A stretch of 62,879 nucleotides of DNA, filler included, from Basidiobolus ranarum (Eukaryota): the NCBI GenBank assembly GCA_040143965.1. It is 46 parts of 46 records of this genome, joined end to end, with 100 filler letters (N's around TTAATTAATTAA, not from the genome) between each part and the next. Parts side by side here need not be neighbours in the genome. Positions count along the whole stretch, not along the records: positions 21,957 to 23,226 come from JASJQH010005747.1; 45 more parts are not named here. One strand, 5' to 3'. Position numbers and translations under genes: made by a program. The notes under the pieces are model-generated. The model did no database searches. It saw nothing but the letters and a program-made list of their open reading frames with translations, and was not told the origin of the DNA. Each line of letters opens with the position of its first letter. Position 1 is the first letter of the stretch. Of the stretch, positions 13,028 through 60,151 are shown in pieces.

Positions 13028-13630
13028 TGTTAAAGTTTATTGTCTTAATCATATTTGTTATATCTACCATTATACACCTAACTGTTTGATATATCACATA
13101 TAAGTTAGATAACATTATTTAGTCAAATATCACTCAACTGAAAATTGGAACCTATATTATATATATATGTGAATAATGTGAGAATTAGCAATTCCATATT
13201 GGAAATTTCAAACTCATCCAACTTGCCCCAAAGATAGCTCATTTTACTCCCACAGATGTTCTAAACACAAACCCAGTGTTAGTTTTCTATATTTCTGTCA
13301 AAATGTATAAATGCTTTATTTCTGGACAATAAATAATTATCTTACAAAGCTATTCACAACTCCACTTTTCTAAAGTTCCTCCAAACAGCCCATATTTTCC
13401 CAATAGGTCATGAGCCCCATGTTCTAACCTTTGCAGCATGACAGAAATCACTACTACCACTCTTATTAACTCAAGTGTTGAAAAGCTTGATGGAGAAAAT
13501 TACAATTTCTGGAAGTTCTAGATGCAAATCATGCTGGAAGACAGGGAGCTTTGGGATGTAGTCTCTGGAGATGAAAAGGAACCTTCTGACCCTTCTTTAC
13601 TGGAAGCCTACAAGAAAAGAGACAAGAAGG
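13028..13630 (+). mobile_element. Copia family 1 5' end: LTR-B (13028-13405, 378 bp), PBS (13406-13418), gag start (ATG at 13438)
   Basis: TGTT...CCCAATA followed directly by GGTCATGAGCCCC; gag MTEITTT..EKLDGENYNFWKF. Confidence 0.92.
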
Positions 13631-21956: not shown

Positions 21957-23132
21957 CAGCTATGTAATTCCCTTTTTGATCCCAGATTGTGCAGCCATTT
22001 TGATCAAAATTAAAGCTCTATCCCTCAGATGTAGCTTTACTCACTGATAACAAATTTTTTGCTGTCCCAGGCACATATAGCACATTTTTCAGTGTCAAAC
22101 ACATGTCCCCAGAGATGCCCCCAAGATCCACTTCAATTTCTCCTACCCCAGAGCTTCTAGTGGCCAGTCATCTCCCATATAAACCTTCTGATTTATGTCA
22201 GTTTTGACAGTCTTAAACAAGTTTTTTTGATTAGAGAAATGTTGAGAGCCTCCAGAATCAATATACCACAACCTACAGTCTTGTTCAGAGGTCACTGATA
22301 GGGCAGAAATGAATAAAACTTATTCTTTGGTTGAAACCTGATTTGCTTGTTCTGACTTCTCATTTTGTTGTAATTTCTTGATTTGCAATCTTTTATCTGG
22401 TGTCCTGGTTTGTTACAACCATTGCATAAACCTGTTTTCCTTCTTTTGTGACCTTTGTACTTGCCTAAGCTACATTTTCCAGCTCCAAAAAGAGCCACTT
22501 CCTCAGACTGCTTTTCCAAATTCTTACTTCTGAGATGTTGATCCATTAGCCTTGCTAACAAAAACTCCAAAGATAAGTAGTCAGATCTTGCTTCCAAAGC
22601 TGTCACCAAGCTTGAATATTGTTCTGGTAGACTACTTAGAAGAGTCATAATAACATCTTCTTCCTGTAAAGTTGCATCAATATTTTACAGTTGTTTTGCT
22701 GAAGATCTCACATTTGCAATATGAGTAACCATGCTTTCATACTTGTCCATCTTTATATTGAAGAATTTTTGTTTGAAAAAGAGTCTATTGGCAAGACTCT
22801 TTGCTTCATAACTCTCTTCCAATATAGTCCAAGCTTGATGGGAAGTCTTTGCATATTGAATAATCACAATTTATGAATCCTTCAAACTTTGACAAATGAC
22901 ATTAAAGGCCTTCTTGTCTCTTTTCTTGTAAGCTTCAAAAAAGAAGGGTCAGAAGGTACCTTTTCATCTCCAGAGACTACATCCCAAAGCTCCCTCTCTT
23001 CCAGCATGATTTGCATCTTGAGCTTCCAGAAATTGTGACTTTCTCCATCAAGCTTTTCAACACTTGAGTAAATAAAAGTGGTAGTAGAGGTTTCTGTCAT
23101 GATGTAAAGATCAGAACATGGGGATCATAACC
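21957..23132 (-). mobile_element. Ty1/Copia family 1 PBS (23120-23132), gag (ATG at 23100) and protease
   Basis: MTETSTTT..EKLDGE..WKLKMQ; CNGCNKPGHQIKDC zinc knuckle; WYIDSGGSQH. Confidence 0.93.
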
Positions 23133-23226
23133 TGTTGAAATTATTTAGGGCAAAATATTGGTCTGGCCAGGATTTGAACCTGGGACCGGCTTCACTCTAG
23201 CAAGGGGCTCTCACCACTGAGCTACC
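23133..23226 (-). ncRNA. LTR-like 3' end (..TTTCAACA) containing a tRNA-derived Pol III cassette (23159-23226)
   Basis: A box TAGCTCAGTGG; D stem GCTC/GAGC; T arm CCAGG-TTCAAAT-CCTGG; 3' CCAGACCA then TTTT; anticodon arm does not pair; abuts the PBS. Confidence 0.75.
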
Positions 23227-23326
23227 NNNNNNNNNNNNNNNNNNNNNNNNNNNNNNNNNNNNNNNNNNNNTTAATTAATTAANNNNNNNNNNNNNNNNNN
23301 NNNNNNNNNNNNNNNNNNNNNNNNNN

Positions 23327-24024
23327 TTCAGGTTTTTCAGATCACCGGTGAAAGCCAAACAACCATTTGGACATGAAGGCAGTTTAATTACTGAAGGATT
23401 ATAAGTCATATGATTGACAAGTGTTTTCCACTTGTACCAGGTTTGTGGCAAGCAACAGTTGCCAATCAACTGTGGTAAAAGTGTAAGAAAACCAATAAAC
23501 ACCTGGTTGCTAAGATTGGATTGAACTCTCCACTCCTCAATAATCAAAGCTGCTTCCTTTACTGTAAGTGTTATGAGTGGACTAATATTTGCCAATAACA
23601 AAGAGTCCGTAACAAAACCGTCATCTTCTTCTTCAACTTCTGATATACTACCATTGGTACTGGAATAACCAAGGTCAACATCTAGCAGCAATTCCTCAAA
23701 GTTGTCTGGACTTACTGGTTCAACCAAAGTTGCATTTTGACCTACATCATTCTGGTCATATAACTGTGGTAACTCCACAGTATCTTGACTTTTGGCAGTG
23801 TTACCAAAACTTTGAGGCAAACTACAGTCAGTGGACTCAATAGGCAAAACTAAAGTTGATTTAGTGCACTTATTACTGTTGTTATACACCAGGCTTTGTG
23901 CAGCTGGTGGCTTTGTACAGTGACCGTGCTTGTGATTATTTTTTCTATGAAGCCTCCAGCTTTCATAGCACAAGAATTTGCAACAATAATAGCAGGGCTT
24001 CTTTAAATGTTTGTGTTGCGGCAT
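23327..24024 (-). mobile_element. CMC/CACTA (EnSpm-like) transposase, N-terminal part, frame intact
   Basis: N-terminal CxxC..H..H, an acidic linker, then LSNQVF..LPQTWY..CPNGCLAFTGDLKNL, typical of the Tnp2/TnpD N-terminus. Confidence 0.85.
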
Positions 24025-24236
24025 GAGAAGGATATTGTAGAAAAAAGAACACCTCCCACATAAGGGTGGTATTTTAGGTATAGCCCATCAATATCATCAG
24101 CTGATTCTGAGATGGTGTCACAGATGAGTCATCAGGGGATTTACAAGATATTTCCAGTAATGGATGGCAATTTTGGTTTATTATAAGCTGTTTCTAAGCA
24201 ATTTCATTACACCAAGTTTACCATCTGAAAATTTCA

Positions 24237-29275: not shown

Positions 29276-29358
29276 CTGAACATAGCTCAGTTGGTAGAGC
29301 AGGAGACTCTAGTGTTATAGCAATCTCTAGGTCACTGATTCAAATCCAGTTGTTTGGA
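29276..29358 (+). tRNA. tRNA-Tyr-like pseudogene with a ~10-nt intron; anticodon reads CTA
   Basis: CTGAACA/TGTTTGG acceptor; TAGCTCAGTTGGTAGAGC; GGAGA-CT-CTA-G, intron, A-TCTCT; T arm ACTGA-TTCAAAT-CCAGT with one mismatch; T6 terminator follows. Confidence 0.8.
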
Positions 29359-29580
29359 CATTTTTTGGGAAAGTCAGTCAGTAACTAGGCTGAGAATAAA
29401 GTATATTTTCCACCTAGGCTAAGTGGTACAAACAATCAAGCCAATATAACAAAACTGTAAGGTATCATTACCTTGTTTTGTTAGAAGATGCTCATCAATT
29501 CCATGCTGGAGACTAGACAAGATGAGGCTTCAAACAAAAAGGAATTACATTAAACAATTAACAAAATAAAACAAAAGACT

Positions 29581-29654
29581 CACTCCTGGGTGGGCTTGAA
29601 CCACCAACCTCCTGATTAACAGTCAGATGCACTAGCCAATTATTCCACAAGAGC
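29581..29654 (-). tRNA. tRNA-Asn(GTT), degenerate, probable pseudogene
   Basis: TCTGA-CTGTTAA-TCAGG anticodon arm; GGTGG-TTCAAGC-CCACC T arm; damaged D stem; T-run downstream. Confidence 0.82.
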
Positions 29655-29931
29655 TACTTGTTTCTGAGTACTGATTGCACAAAACATGTTCCTTAAAATT
29701 TACCAGAGTCTCCCCCCTTGTTATAATGAGTGATTAAATCAAATCATCTGGTGCTTGCTGAGTATATGGCTAGATCTTAGAGATAAATTATCTACACAAG
29801 TCAACTCAGATACTGATATTTCCTTGTTATGCAGGATCTTCTGGATACTATTCTTTTTGTAATATGCATAACTTTGGATATGATAAGGATTAAGCCAACA
29901 ATTAAGTGAGAATAGTATCTTGCTTGTACTA

Positions 29932-30004
29932 GCCATCTTAGCTCATTTGGGAGAGCATCAGACTGAAGATCTGAAGGTCCTGCATTCAATCTGCAGCGAT
30001 GGCA
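29932..30004 (+). tRNA. tRNA-Phe(GAA), degenerate, probable pseudogene
   Basis: TCAGA-CTGAAGA-TCTGA anticodon arm; GCTC/GAGC D stem; B box mutated (CATTCAATCTG). Confidence 0.82.
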
Positions 30005-37529: not shown

Positions 37530-38289
37530 TGTTGTAGTTTATTATCTTTATCATGTTTGTTATCTTGATCTATACACATGTAACTATTTCATTTATCACC
37601 TATAAGTTAGTTAAGATTACTTAGTCAAATATCAGTTAACTGCAAATCAGAACATACATTATAAATATATGTAAATAATGGGAGAATTAGCAATTCCATA
37701 TTGAAAATTTCAAACTTGTCCAAATTGCCTCAAAGATAGCTCATTTCTCTCTCACAGATGTTCTGAACACAATACCAATGTTAGTTTTCTGTATTTCCAC
37801 CAAAATGTATAAATGATTCCTTTCTGGACAATAAACATTTATCTTGCAAAAGCTATCACAATTCCTCTTTTTTAAAGTTCCTCTAAACAGCCCACATGTT
37901 CCTAATAGATTATGAGCCCCTTGTTCTAACTTTTACAGCATGACAGAAACCACTACTACCACTTTTATTAACTCAAGTGTTGAAAAGCTTGATGGAGAAA
38001 ATTACAATTTCTGGAAGTTCAAGATGCAGATCATGCTGGAAGACAGGTAGCTTTGGGATGTAGTCTCTGGAGATGAAATGGAACCTTCTGACCCTTCTTT
38101 ATTGGAAGCTTACATGAAAATATTGGTGCAACTGTACCAGAAGAAGATGTCATTATGACTTTTCTAAGGAATCCATCAGAACGGTATTCAAACTTGGTCA
38201 CAACTTTGGAAGCAAGATCTGATAAGGTATCTTTGGAGTTTGTGGTGGCAAGGCTAATGGATCAACACCTTAGAAGTAAAAATTTGGAA
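37530..38289 (+). mobile_element. Copia family 1 5' end: LTR-B (37530-37907), PBS, gag with an internal deletion at ~38120
   Basis: LTR ends CCTAATA, followed by GATTATGAGCCCC; gag jumps from LEAY to IGATVPEEDV. Confidence 0.9.
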
Positions 38290-41125: not shown

Positions 41126-42393
41126 CTATGAAATAGGACTATTGGACATGCTTAGATCATAACAAACATGCCTGTTAAGCATGGGTGAAAATTTGAGGTG
41201 ATTTGGAGAAGTTTTGAGAAAATAGTGAAAATTGGTTAAAGTGATCTAATGATATTTCTATCAATTAGAGTAATAAACACATGTTTTTGAATGACAGAAT
41301 TGAGTGCTAAATAATCAGAATATGAACAAACTAACTACTAAATAATGAGTTGCTATTTACCTACTTTCAACAATTTTAGCTTTTTGGCAAAAATCCTTTT
41401 TCTGCAAGCTTTGATCAAATGGCCTGGTGTCTTGCAATACTTGCACATGATTAATTTCCTAATAGGGGCACCATTATTGAAGCCTGTTGCATGTTTTGTA
41501 GCCCCAAAAAATTCCTGTTCTGCCTTATTTTGCTTGGAATTAGATCTCCATAATTCTTCATTCAAAGGCTTAGCACCAACATATTCCATTGTTAATGGCT
41601 CTGATTTTGCTTCCAGGGCAATCATGAGGTTCCCAAACTTGTCTGACATGCTCCCATGTAGTGTCATGACTTAGTCATCTTCATTTAGAGGTGCTCTAAT
41701 GGATGAGAGCTGATCTACCATAGTTTTTATTCAATTTCTATGACTAAGCATAGAAGCATGAGCATTCATCTGAATTGAGAATAATTTTCACCTAACATAT
41801 AGTCTATTAGCCAGACTTTTATTCTCATATAATTCCTCAAGTGTTTCCCAAGCATTTTGAATGTTTTTGGCTGATTGCATGTGCCTCAATTGAGAATCTC
41901 TGAGATGTAGACAAAGTGTAGAGAGTGCTTTTCTCTGCTTCTTGTGAGAGGCAAGGATAGCTTCTGGTGGTACCTTTGGCTCTATTTCTTCTGCTGTAAC
42001 AAATCCCCAAAGGTCCTTGTCTTCTAGCACCATCTGCATCTTGAACTTTCAAAGGAGAGAGTTTTCACCATCAATCTTTTCTGTGGATGCAAAAACGTTG
42101 GTAATAGTACTGGTAGACATTTCTTTAGCAGCTAGCTTGGGGCTCATAACCTGATAAAAGTGTTTAGGGAATTTGAAAGTGATTTGGAAAAGATTTGGAT
42201 ATTTGAATTAGACACTTAAGTTTTATTAAATTGAATATGTCCTATTTATAGTTTACTATGAAATAGGACTATTGGGCATGCATAGATCATAACAAACATG
42301 CCTGCTAAGCATGGGTGAAAATTTGAGGTGATTTGGAGAAGTTTTGAGAAAATAGTGAAAATTGGTAAAAGTGATCTAATTGCTATTTCTATC
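41126..42393 (-). mobile_element. Copia family 4: LTR-C (42152-42393), PBS (42139-42151), gag (42120-41373), second LTR-C (41372-41126)
   Basis: Direct repeat 41126-41263 ~ 42256-42393; LTR ends ..TTTTATCA then GGTTATGAGCCCC; gag with CKYCKTPGHLIKAC; second LTR starts TGTTGAAAG. Confidence 0.88.
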
Positions 42394-46594: not shown

Positions 46595-47025
46595 CATCCA
46601 ATTTTTCAGAAGAAGGAAAAGTTCCATTTATTTGAGAGGTAGACATTACAGAGAGTGCAAGCTCAGGGCTCATAACCTGTTAAAGTATTTGGGAGCCTGT
46701 TGGAAGTGGTTTGGAGACTTAGAGGAATTGGTGGTTTTCACTTATTGATTTATGGATTAGAAAGTTGACATTTATAGTTTTGTCAAGATGTAAACAGGCT
46801 GACATGTAGAATATGTTAAGGAAGGTCCCAGGAAGATGTGTGCAAAGTTTGGGGCTTCTAGCACAAGTTTGAAAAATCTATATATCTGAGAACATCTAAG
46901 TTGGTAAAAATATTTTAAGTAAATTCCAATTGAGAATAATTGATAATATCTTAGTGAGTTATAAGATAACTAAGTAGTAAGCTATATATGACTATATAGG
47001 CATTTAGGCAATGCTAATTTCAACA
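46595..47025 (-). mobile_element. Copia 5' end: full LTR-A (46678-47025), PBS (46664-46677), gag start
   Basis: ..TTTAACA followed by GGTTATGAGCCCTG; gag MSTS..SEKLD. Confidence 0.92.
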
Positions 47026-56958: not shown

Positions 56959-57421
56959 TGTTGAAGTTTATTGTCTTTATCATATTTATTATCTCTATCT
57001 TTATACACCTAACTGTTTCATATATCACATATAAGTTAGTTAGCATTACTTAGTCAAATATTGCTTAGCTGAAAATCGGAACATACATTATATATATATG
57101 TGCATAATGTGAGAATTAGCAATTCCATAATGGAAATTTTAAACTTGTCCCAATTTCCCCAAAGATAGCTAATTTTACTCCCACAGATGTTCTGAACACA
57201 ACCCCAGTGTTAGTTTTCTGTATTTCCACCAAAAAGTATAAATGCTTTATTTTTGGACAATAAATAATTATATCACAAAGCTATTTACAACTCCACTTTT
57301 CTAAAGTTCTTCCAAACAGCCCATATTTTCCCAATAGGTTATGAGCCCCATGTTCTAACCTTTACAGCATGACAGAAACCACTACTACCACTTTTATTAA
57401 CTCAAGTGTTGAAAAGCTTGA
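56959..57421 (+). mobile_element. Copia family 1 5' end: LTR-B (56959-57336), PBS (57337-57349), gag start
   Basis: TGTTGAAG..CCCAATA followed by GGTTATGAGCCCC; MTETTTTTFINSSVEKL. Confidence 0.93.
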
Positions 57422-58886: not shown

Positions 58887-60151
58887 TCAGGTGCGGCTTG
58901 TCTGAATGCAAACTCAAGTCCAGTAACCGAAGCGAAAATCTCCGAAATGGAGATGCCAACGAATGGAATGATTTGCCACCAGATGGAAATGTCATTGACG
59001 GGATCTTGTCCTGCTGGCAAGTTACTCAAATCCGTGAAATTGTAGTAAGGTCCAGTTTTGTACACTTGTGACTGGAGAACAGTGACGTAGACAAAAGCTA
59101 GAGTGGCAATGGTGAAGCCGATGGTAATGCGTGTGATAGGACCAAGACGACATCCCATTCTTCTCAAGATTGGGAAGACGACTGTGTCAAAGATAGGAAT
59201 AGCAATCACTAACACGAGACTGTTGACGAGATTAAGCTGCTCAGGTCCACTGATGAAGGAAGGACGTTGCATAGTGAGACCCATGTTGATGAAGTTATCC
59301 GACATATTGTAATACAAGGCCCAGTAAAAGGGATAGAACAGGAATACTAGGGAAGCGCGTAGAGTCTTCTTTAGATCCTCCACAAAGGCATCATTCCACT
59401 CAAAGCCATCCACTTTCGCATAGTCCAACCAATGTTCAATTGGGCCATTGGTTTTGGCATTATCCAAGGGTGCCTTGCGATGGGAAAGAGCATATCTGAT
59501 ACATGTGTAGGTCTTGGAGAGTACAGTACCAGATGGAGGTTTAACATAGTAGAATCTCTTGGCTGAAATAAAGATACCCAAACCCAACACAAACATGATA
59601 GCAGGGAGGGAGAAAGCCAGAGGGTAAGAACCATAGTTGTTGGCCACAATTGGGCAGATGAACTGTCCCAGCAAGGCGCCAAGGTTGATGGCCCAGTAGA
59701 AGAATCGAAAGATTCGCTCAACTGTTAGTTGAGAGTCAACGTATACCCCTGGGGTTTTGGTGGCAAAGAGTCCTTCTTTGATTTGTTCAGCAGCAAAAGA
59801 CGAGACATTGGATTTGATACCACCGGTACCAAAGGAAATGAATACATATAGAGCAAGAATGTAACCGATCACTCCAAAGTTTCCGTCAAGGGAAGTGGGA
59901 AGGGCGCTGAGAGCCAAGATGATCAAACCAATCATGTAAAGGATCGAGAATATGACGATGGTTTTGAATTTTCCTAGGTATCTATCAGCAATGATAGCAC
60001 CGAGAATGGTAGTAAAGTATGCCATGAACTGAAAGCCTCGGTTCACAGCGGTAGCGGTACCTTTGCTAAATCCTAGCATCTTGAGCATATAAGGTTGGAA
60101 TAGGAGAGACGCTCCGTAAAAAGCAAAGCGTTCACATAGTTCAGTGATGAT
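58887..60151 (-). CDS. PTR2: POT/PTR family proton-dependent oligopeptide transporter (internal part, open at both contig edges, no intron here)
   Basis: ELCERFAFYG (ExxERF motif), GAIIADRYLGKFKTI, GTGGIKSNV, FYWAINLGA, SEIFASVTGLEFAFRQAAP. Confidence 0.95.

What the first reader, a model, noticed from the sequence alone, without database searches (positions are those of the whole stretch)
23100..23226. Coding Copia element whose 5' LTR carries a tRNA-derived Pol III cassette (possible LTR swap or Helenus-like partner)
Seen: on the minus strand the sequence reads GGTAGCTCAGTGGTGAGAGC-CCCTTGCTAGAGTGAAGCCGGTC-CCAGGTTCAAATCCTGG-CCAGACCA-ATATTTT-GCCCTAAATAATTTCAACA|GGTTATGATCCCC..ATG(gag). It has an A box, paired D stem, perfect T arm/B box, acceptor-like 3' end and T4 terminator, but an unpaired anticodon arm. 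This lies ~26 nt before a canonical CAACA LTR end that sits exactly on the PBS. Three other copies of the same leader and gag (13028, 37530, 56959) have the unrelated LTR-B in this position. Known: Cassandra TRIMs carry 5S rRNA sequence in their LTRs, and as I recall non-autonomous Helenus TRIMs carry tRNA-like LTRs, but these lack coding regions. Inference: a gag-pol-coding Copia that has acquired a Pol III-promoter LTR by template switching, or the autonomous relative of such TRIMs.
Basis: partly seen in the sequence, partly recalled or inferred. Interest (0 to 1): 0.8.

Follow-up and report, generated by a model that had tools for sequence, protein, structure and literature searches.

The report
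tRNA-like LTR end on dead Copia
A decayed Copia retrotransposon fragment from a Basidiobolus-like fungus has a tRNA-like sequence where its usual long terminal repeat should be, resembling the recently described Helenus elements, but only one copy is visible and it is cut off by the end of a 1.27-kb contig.

Summary
The window is 46 unplaced contigs of about 1.27 kb, joined by 100-nt N/TTAATTAATTAA linkers. The tRNA-like piece starts at the last base of contig c17 (21957-23226), so no complete LTR can be seen.

**Confirmed**
- Rfam scores it as tRNA at 36.9 bits, cut at the 5' end. It has boxes A and B and a T4 run, but a broken anticodon stem.
- The 19 nt between it and the PBS are a genuine Copia LTR end. 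They match the LTR ends of two other Copia families in the window (3 of 20000 random 19-mers each). They do not match LTR-B.
- The PBS is the Ty5 type, complementary to a CAT-anticodon stem-loop.
- The leader and gag belong to the LTR-B family (private changes 12, 7 and 8 in 214 columns). Similarity therefore breaks sharply at the LTR/PBS border.

**Not confirmed**
- The copy is not "coding": at least 3 frameshifts and 3 stops.
- Repetition, a second LTR, the TSD and the PPT cannot be tested.

**Best reading (0.42)**
A Helenus-like tRNA-bearing LTR recombined onto a Copia interior. The host is a Basidiobolus relative, a group absent from the published Helenus host list. Interest is moderate.

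The parts
21957..23226 (-). Contig c17 (1270 bp): decayed 5' end of a Ty1/copia element. It is one of 46 contigs joined by linkers.
23227..23326 (.). Linker N44-TTAATTAATTAA-N44. This is a contig boundary, not genomic sequence.
23159..23226 (-). tRNA-derived module, cut at the 5' end by the contig end (Rfam tRNA model positions 6-71). Box A is TAGCTCAGTGG at 23224-23214. Box B is GGTTCAAATCC at 23180-23170. The anticodon stem is broken.
   Evidence: ARAGORN gives no call
23152..23158 (-). ATATTTT: a 3-nt trailer plus a T4 run, a possible weak Pol III stop.
23133..23151 (-). 19-nt LTR terminus GCCCTAAATAATTTCAACA. It resembles the LTR ends of the c31 and c35 Copia families, not LTR-B.
23120..23132 (-). 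PBS GGTTATGATCCCC. It is complementary to a CAT-anticodon stem-loop (Ty5 type) and differs at 1 base from the form in the other copies.
   Evidence: CAT anticodon loops seen in L001 and L002; Kojima 2024
21957..23100 (-). Broken gag and start of protease: DUF4219, Retrotran_gag_2, a CCHC knuckle seen in the translation (no Pfam call), and Pol_BBD. At least 3 frameshifts and at least 3 stops.
13028..13405 (+). LTR-B (378 bp, TGTTG...CCCAATA), 5' LTR of the same family in contig c10, followed by the PBS at 13406.
37530..37907 (+). LTR-B, 5' LTR of the same family in contig c28, followed by the PBS at 37908.
56959..57336 (+). LTR-B, 5' LTR of the same family in contig c42, followed by the PBS at 57337.
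42140..42170 (-). Another Copia family (contig c31): LTR terminus TCCCTAAACACTTTTATCA plus the same PBS.
46666..46696 (-). Another Copia family (contig c35): LTR terminus GCTCCCAAATACTTTAACA plus the same PBS.

Best explanation
Contig c17 is the dead 5' end of a Ty1/copia element of a Basidiobolus-like fungus.

**Anatomy**
The visible 94 nt of its LTR are not the family's usual LTR-B. They consist of:
- a tRNA-derived module with boxes A and B;
- a 3-nt trailer and a T4 run;
- a 19-nt LTR terminus of the kind used by other Copia families in this genome.

This LTR end abuts a Ty5-type PBS, complementary to the anticodon stem-loop of initiator tRNA-Met.

**Reading**
I read c17 as a mosaic. A Helenus-like (TRIMp3-like) tRNA-bearing LTR is joined at the PBS to the interior of the LTR-B Copia family.

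**Inferred origin**
- Most likely, recombination during reverse transcription between co-packaged RNAs that share the PBS. An example is a plus-strand strong-stop DNA made on one template landing on the other.
- Alternatively, later recombination between elements.

**Inferred workings in the short source element**
- Pol III starts at the tRNA-like module, which would be R.
- It sometimes reads through the weak T4 in the 5' LTR and stops at the T4 in the 3' LTR.
- The 19 nt after the T4 are U5.

In c17 this promoter cannot make a full-length RNA, and the copy has decayed.

**Shown:** the anatomy and the break in similarity. **Inferred:** the existence of the source element, the recombination route and Pol III use.
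For: **The tRNA-like module is real**
- RF00005 at 36.9 bits, E 7.8e-07, with D and T stems free of mismatch marks.

**The 19 nt before the PBS are an LTR end**
- Alignment scores are 9 to the c31 LTR end and 10 to the c35 LTR end. Each is reached by 3 of 20000 random 19-mers from the window.

**It is not LTR-B**
- The score to LTR-B is 3, whereas five LTR-B copies share 15-19 of 19 positions with each other.

**The interior belongs to the LTR-B family**
- About 90% identity to c10, c28 and c42.
- Private substitutions are 12, 7 and 8 in 214 ungapped columns for c17, c10 and c28.
- Similarity therefore changes abruptly within a few nt of the LTR/PBS border.

**The family is a true Copia**
- c2 overlaps the end of c17 at 88.6%, and c13 at 88.4%.
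- c13 carries rve and SH3_retrovirus upstream of RVT_2.

**Precedent (Kojima 2024; sections 3, 4, methods and legends read)**
- Fungal Helenus mostly use the iMet anticodon-loop PBS.
- They share the PBS region with Copia. One family shares 198 bp of Copia interior while its LTRs are unrelated.

**Position within the LTR**
- TATAAAT lies 99-100 nt before the LTR end in LTR-B, c31 and c35.
- The tRNA module plus T run fills -94 to -20 in c17.
Against: - There is one copy among 46 contigs, and it is cut by the contig end. No LTR start, no second LTR, no TSD and no PPT is visible.
- No Helenus-like short element, and no other tRNA-like LTR, is seen in the window. The whole-window Rfam scan at E up to 10 finds only this piece and three tRNAs in c22.
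- External scans found no relative. The metagenome scan gave only 2 bacterial tRNA-Met genes. Viral contigs and prokaryote genome contigs gave 0. None of these collections is expected to hold this fungus.
- The minimum-energy fold is not a cloverleaf.
- The T4 lies 3 nt after the tRNA-like end, and 7 further T runs of 4 or more lie downstream. These argue against any Pol III transcript reaching the interior.
- Short contigs from a repeat-rich assembly can be chimeric.
Confidence: 0.42

Rival explanations
1. A private event in one LTR copy. A tRNA gene segment, or a reverse-transcribed Pol III primary transcript (tRNA plus trailer plus U run), was captured into the U5 part of a single c31/c35-type LTR. 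It was never propagated and has no promoter role.
For: - Single copy in the window.
- The module ends with a trailer and a T4 run, exactly like a Pol III primary transcript or gene.
- The LTR terminus resumes immediately after it.
- Kojima proposes that such insertions are how tRNA-bearing LTRs arise.
Against: - It does not explain why an interior of the LTR-B family carries a non-LTR-B terminus, so a second event is still needed.
- There is no SINE body or A-rich tail: only 7 nt lie between the tRNA end and the LTR terminus.
Confidence: 0.25
2. A true subfamily. Full-length Copia elements carry this tRNA-bearing LTR at both ends, driven by an upstream Pol II promoter. The tRNA-like part then serves as R/U5 structure or as a TFIIIC-binding site. 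c17 is one decayed member.
For: - The terminus is of the type shared by other Copia families, so it could be the ancestral state, with LTR-B the derived one.
- The module occupies the TATA-to-U5 stretch of ordinary LTRs.
- Kojima's screen kept only elements shorter than 1000 bp, so long elements would have been missed.
Against: - The c17 interior is no more than slightly more diverged than LTR-B-bearing copies (12 against 7-8 private changes). That argues against an old separate lineage.
- No second member is present in the window.
Confidence: 0.13
3. Assembly artefact. The contig joins reads from a tRNA-bearing locus or short element to reads from a Copia copy, through shared sequence.
For: - Contigs are about 1.27 kb, unplaced and made of repeats.
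- The contig ends inside the tRNA-like piece.
Against: - Exact sequence shared with other families at the junction is short: the PBS, about 12-14 nt.
- The tRNA-like end and the family-specific leader are only about 40 nt apart. A single ordinary read would span both (inference).
Confidence: 0.12
4. A cellular tRNA (pseudo)gene that merely flanks a Copia copy lacking its 5' LTR. An example is an LTR-less cDNA captured at a break. The CAACA and the 19 nt would be chance.
For: - The similarity break lies at the PBS, where full-length minus-strand cDNA ends before the second transfer (established retroelement replication).
- tRNA genes cluster in this genome (c22).
Against: - The 19 nt match two independent LTR ends, each match reached by 3 of 20000 random 19-mers.
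- The anticodon stem is broken, so this is not a working tRNA gene.
Confidence: 0.05

Closest known systems
Helenus (TRIMp3), fungal families such as LTR-1_PTrit (Kojima 2024, PMC10886601)
   Same: - A tRNA-like sequence with conserved boxes A and B inside an LTR.
- The tRNA-like part is not a credible working tRNA.
[quoted passage not shown]
- It shares the PBS, and here the whole leader, with a Copia family.
   Different: - The interior is at least 1176 bp of gag/protease homology, not a short non-coding stretch. Helenus are 311-1263 bp in total.
- Only one LTR end is visible, in one copy.
- The host is a Basidiobolus relative. The paper's host table lists only Pucciniales and two Agaricomycetes among fungi.
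- I could not compare sequences with the Helenus consensus set, because the supplements and Repbase are closed.
Cassandra TRIMs of plants
   Same: A Pol III-type small-RNA gene module carried in an LTR.
   Different: - Cassandra carries 5S rRNA, not tRNA.
- It is found in plants and is non-coding.
- Known to me here only through Kojima's account.
Ty5 of Saccharomyces and copia of Drosophila (Ty1/copia superfamily)
   Same: - The PBS pairs with the anticodon stem-loop region of initiator tRNA-Met rather than with its 3' end (Kojima 2024).
- gag, protease, integrase and RT lie in Copia order.
   Different: Their LTRs carry no tRNA-like module (recalled, not tested).
tRNA-derived SINEs (SINE2)
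   Same: A tRNA-derived head with Pol III boxes.
   Different: - No body and no LINE-type tail: the LTR terminus follows 7 nt after the tRNA end.
- It lies within an LTR/PBS frame.

Membership tests
Helenus / TRIMp3 | tRNA-derived sequence inside the LTR, with box A (TRGCY...YGG) and box B (GGTTC) | tested here: met
   Rfam tRNA 36.9 bits. TAGCT...TGG and GGTTC are present. An LTR terminus follows it.
Helenus / TRIMp3 | Two LTRs as direct repeats, both carrying the module | not testable with these tools
   The contig ends inside the module. No genome is held.
Helenus / TRIMp3 | Short non-coding element (TRIM; under 1000 bp in the screen, 311-1263 bp reported) | tested here: not met
   At least 1176 bp of interior with gag and Pol_BBD homology.
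Helenus / TRIMp3 | PBS directly after the 5' LTR (in fungi, mostly the iMet anticodon loop) | tested here: met
   GGTTATGATCCC at 23121-23132, directly after ...CAACA.
Helenus / TRIMp3 | PPT before the 3' LTR and a 5-bp TSD | not testable with these tools
   Neither the 3' end nor the outer flank lies on the contig.
Helenus / TRIMp3 | Interspersed repeat family (many copies) | tested here: inconclusive
   1 of 46 contigs in the window carries it. The rest of the genome is unseen.
Ty1/copia LTR retrotransposon | Copia-type gag and the domain order protease, integrase, RT | tested here: met
   c17 has DUF4219, Retrotran_gag_2 and Pol_BBD. Sister contigs c2 and c13 link to it at 88-89%. c13 has rve and SH3_retrovirus upstream of RVT_2.
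Ty1/copia LTR retrotransposon | Intact, autonomous coding capacity | tested here: not met
   At least 3 frameshifts and at least 3 in-frame stops in c17. One frameshift is a private 1-nt deletion relative to c10 and c28.
Functional tRNA gene | Complete cloverleaf with a paired anticodon stem and a consistent isotype | tested here: not met
   2 of 5 anticodon-stem pairs are non-standard. ARAGORN gives no call. The minimum-energy fold is not a cloverleaf. The 5' acceptor strand is missing.
tRNA-derived SINE | tRNA head, then a body and a LINE-like or A-rich tail | tested here: not met
   Only ATATTTT lies between the tRNA end and the LTR terminus.

The most novel reading that the evidence does not exclude
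This Basidiobolus-like fungus harbours Helenus-type LTRs that carry a tRNA-derived Pol III cassette. c17 is a natural hybrid in which such an LTR was transferred onto the gag-pol interior of its Copia helper, through the shared iMet-anticodon PBS. This would be the first tRNA-bearing LTR on a coding-length Copia. It would also be the first Helenus-like element outside the listed fungal hosts, and direct sequence evidence that a TRIMp3 and its helper are co-packaged and recombine.
Probability: 0.3. Interest if true: 0.65.

Novelty: new variant of a known kind. Interest (0 to 1): 0.42.

Why it matters
Kojima (2024) states that it is not known how a tRNA-bearing miniature LTR element stays tied to its autonomous helper. 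He also expects helpers not to share LTR sequence with such elements.

A real hybrid, with a tRNA-type LTR on a Copia interior and the join at the shared PBS, would do three things:
- It would identify the helper family.
- It would show recombination between the two during replication.
- It would extend such elements to an early-diverging fungal lineage.

It also matters for tRNA gene prediction in such genomes, because these modules pass the Rfam threshold.

If the copy is a one-off insertion or a mis-assembly, it is ordinary transposon debris.

Tried and rejected
**Dead ends**
- Whole-genome search: no genome is held.
- Earlier findings of this scan, by genome, words, sequence and relatives: nothing relevant.
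- Metagenome scan with a box A to box B pattern: 2 loci, both ordinary bacterial tRNA-Met(CAT) genes. They share the D- and T-arm strings because the pattern demanded them.
- Viral contigs and prokaryote genome contigs, scanned with the 22-nt T-arm plus acceptor string: 0 matches each.
- Protein search with a c17 gag piece against longer proteins: no hit.
- Protein search with the family's RT: generic Copia hits at 68% identity or less. The named hits are mostly plants and none is labelled Basidiobolus, so there is no taxon signal. The Atlas look-up gave the same generic result.
- Direct and inverted repeats in the tRNA contig c22: none.

**Rejected readings**
- Insertion into LTR-B 19 nt from its end. 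The 19 nt do not resemble LTR-B.
- A canonical SINE. There is no body or tail.
- A read-through copy of the primer tRNA. The module is in sense orientation and lies upstream of the LTR end.
- A rust-fungus origin, my first guess after reading about Helenus. The PTR2 transporter in c44 is 89% identical to a Basidiobolus meristosporus protein, and the next group of hits is at 62% or below.

Full report
**What the window is**

The 62,879 bases are not one stretch of genome. They are 46 contigs of 1264-1274 bp, sorted by length. The contigs are joined by 45 identical 100-nt linkers (N44, TTAATTAATTAA, N44).

The finding lies in contig c17 (21957-23226), with the element on the minus strand. The tRNA-like piece starts at base 23226, the last base of the contig, and a linker follows. 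Whatever lies upstream is therefore unknown.

**Host**

Contig c44 encodes 421 residues of a PTR2 peptide transporter. It is 89%, 83% and 82% identical to three proteins of Basidiobolus meristosporus CBS 931.73. The next hits are at 62% or less. I take the assembly to be a Basidiobolus relative. This rests on one gene in another contig of the same window.

**The observation**

On the minus strand, one search shows these features in order:
- a tRNA-like string (23226-23159);
- ATATTTT (23158-23152);
- GCCCTAAATAATTTCAACA (23151-23133);
- GGTTATGATCCCC (23132-23120);
- a leader, and the gag ATG at 23100.

Evidence on the tRNA-like string:
- Rfam's tRNA model scores it at 31 bits (E 0.016) in the whole window.
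- Scanned alone with truncation allowed, it scores 36.9 bits (E 7.8e-07). It covers model positions 6-71 and is flagged as cut at the 5' end.
- The D and T stems carry no mismatch mark. Two of the five anticodon-stem pairs are non-standard. Only two acceptor pairs are visible.
- ARAGORN does not call it.
- The minimum-energy fold keeps only the T hairpin, not a cloverleaf (z = -1.72; 13 of 200 shuffles fold at least as well).

It is a tRNA-derived sequence with consensus-like boxes A and B. It is not a credible working tRNA gene. It occurs once among the 46 contigs. A permissive Rfam scan of the whole window adds no further tRNA-like hits beyond three tRNAs in contig c22.

**The element**

The c17 translation carries DUF4219, Retrotran_gag_2 and the Pol beta-barrel domain.

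The reading frame moves 1 to 3 to 2 to 1, with at least three in-frame stops. The first frameshift is a 1-nt deletion that c10 and c28 lack. This is a dead copy, not a "coding" one.

The family itself is a true Ty1/copia:
- Contig c2 overlaps the end of c17 at 88.6% and runs into integrase.
- c2 overlaps c13 at 88.4%.
- c13 has rve and SH3_retrovirus upstream of RVT_2.

**LTR-B**

Each is followed by the same PBS and leader. Further copies or pieces are in c45, c23, c11 and c46.

**Where similarity breaks**

Downstream of the PBS, c17 is about 90% identical to c10, c28 and c42. In 214 ungapped columns the private substitutions are 12 (c17), 7 (c10) and 8 (c28). The c17 interior therefore belongs to the same family and is at most slightly more diverged.

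Upstream of the PBS this ends at once. Five LTR-B copies share 15-19 of their last 19 nt with each other. c17 aligns to them only with gaps, at score 3, a score reached by 176-192 of 20000 random 19-mers. The c17 LTR is not LTR-B.

**The 19 nt are a real LTR end**

Two other Copia families in the window have the same PBS: c31 (PBS 42140-42151) and c35 (PBS 46666-46677). Their LTRs end TCCCTAAACACTTTTATCA and GCTCCCAAATACTTTAACA.

The c17 19-mer aligns to these with scores 9 and 10. Each score is reached by 3 of 20000 random 19-mers from the window. I chose the 19-nt frame after seeing the first alignment, so the figures are somewhat optimistic.

This result removes two readings:
- that the tRNA-like piece is an unrelated flank;
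- that it is an insertion exactly at the LTR/PBS junction.

In LTR-B, c31 and c35 a TATAAAT lies 99-100 nt before the LTR end. In c17 the tRNA module plus T run fills -94 to -20. The missing five tRNA bases would reach about -99.

**The PBS**

GGTTATGAGCCC, with one mismatch in c17, is the reverse complement of a CAT-anticodon stem-loop. The same GGCTCATAACC string is seen in the tRNA-Met genes of L001 and L002. Kojima reports this anticodon-loop priming by tRNA-iMet for Ty5, for copia, and as the dominant type in fungal Helenus.

**Comparison with Helenus**

I read sections 2, 3 and 4 and the legends and tables of Kojima 2024 (PMC10886601). Helenus are miniature LTR elements (311-1263 bp) whose LTRs hold a tRNA-like sequence with conserved boxes.

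For the fungal families:
- They make 5-bp TSDs.
- They mostly use the iMet anticodon-loop PBS.
- They resemble Copia at the PBS.
- In one case they share 198 bp of Copia interior while the LTRs are unrelated.

The screen kept only elements under 1000 bp. The fungal hosts listed are Pucciniales plus Agaricus and Coprinopsis.

c17 matches on the tRNA-like LTR content, the box pattern, the PBS type and the Copia link. It fails on being short and non-coding. It cannot be tested for paired LTRs, PPT, TSD or copy number. I therefore do not file it as a Helenus. It works like one at the LTR end.

In the held library, only this paper describes such elements. One 2026 sugar beet paper merely cites it (passages).

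**Mechanism**

Shown: a mosaic, in which a tRNA-bearing non-LTR-B LTR end is joined to an LTR-B-family interior, with the seam at the PBS.

Inferred: the seam arose by recombination through the shared PBS during reverse transcription of co-packaged RNAs, or by later recombination between elements.

Inferred for the source LTR:
- Pol III starts at the tRNA module, which is R.
- The T4 acts as a leaky stop.
- The last 19 nt are U5.

That T4 is a weak stop in fungi is recalled, not tested. In c17 Pol III could not make a genomic RNA, because the sense strand has 8 runs of T4 or longer, four of them T5-T6.

**Rivals**

- One-off capture of a tRNA gene or Pol III transcript into one LTR: 0.25.
- A true subfamily with the module in both LTRs: 0.13.
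- A chimeric contig: 0.12.
- A flanking tRNA pseudogene: 0.05.

The chimera reading is weakened because the tRNA-like end and the family-specific leader lie only about 40 nt apart, with at most a 12-14-nt string shared with other families. Without reads it stands.

**Verdict**

- The case rests on 94 nt at a contig end.
- If it holds, it is a new variant of a known kind. Interest is moderate.

Noticed in passing
window 1-62879: The window is 46 contigs of 1264-1274 bp in descending length, joined by N44-TTAATTAATTAA-N44 linkers. Any feature that crosses a linker is an artefact.
   Followed up: yes
window 29276-30004 (contig c22): Three tRNA genes lie within 730 bp. One is an 83-nt Rfam hit on the plus strand, with an extended anticodon region holding CTA, that ARAGORN misses. 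The others are tRNA-Asn(GTT) on the minus strand and tRNA-Phe(GAA) on the plus strand. No repeats surround them.
   Followed up: partly
window 58889-60151 (-), contig c44: An intact 421-residue fragment of a PTR2/POT peptide transporter, 89% identical to a Basidiobolus meristosporus protein. It is the only clear host gene I examined.
   Followed up: yes
window 42140-42170 (-), 46666-46696 (-), 13387-13417 (+): At least three Copia families in this assembly share the iMet-anticodon PBS and a TATAAAT 99-100 nt before the LTR end. c31, c35 and c17 also share a terminus of the form CCCnAAA..TTT..A.CA. LTR-B is the odd one out.
   Followed up: partly
window 23327-24087 (-), contig c18: A 253-codon open frame, rich in Cys and acidic residues. 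The 124 residues I scanned (23327-23700) gave no Pfam match. It may be part of a DNA transposon protein. It is unrelated to c17, since a linker lies between them.
   Followed up: partly
L001 1431-1506, L002 63-137: Bacterial tRNA-Met(CAT) genes from metagenome contigs share the D-arm and T-arm strings of the c17 module, but not the acceptor or anticodon arms. The search pattern required those strings, so this is no sign of kinship.
   Followed up: yes
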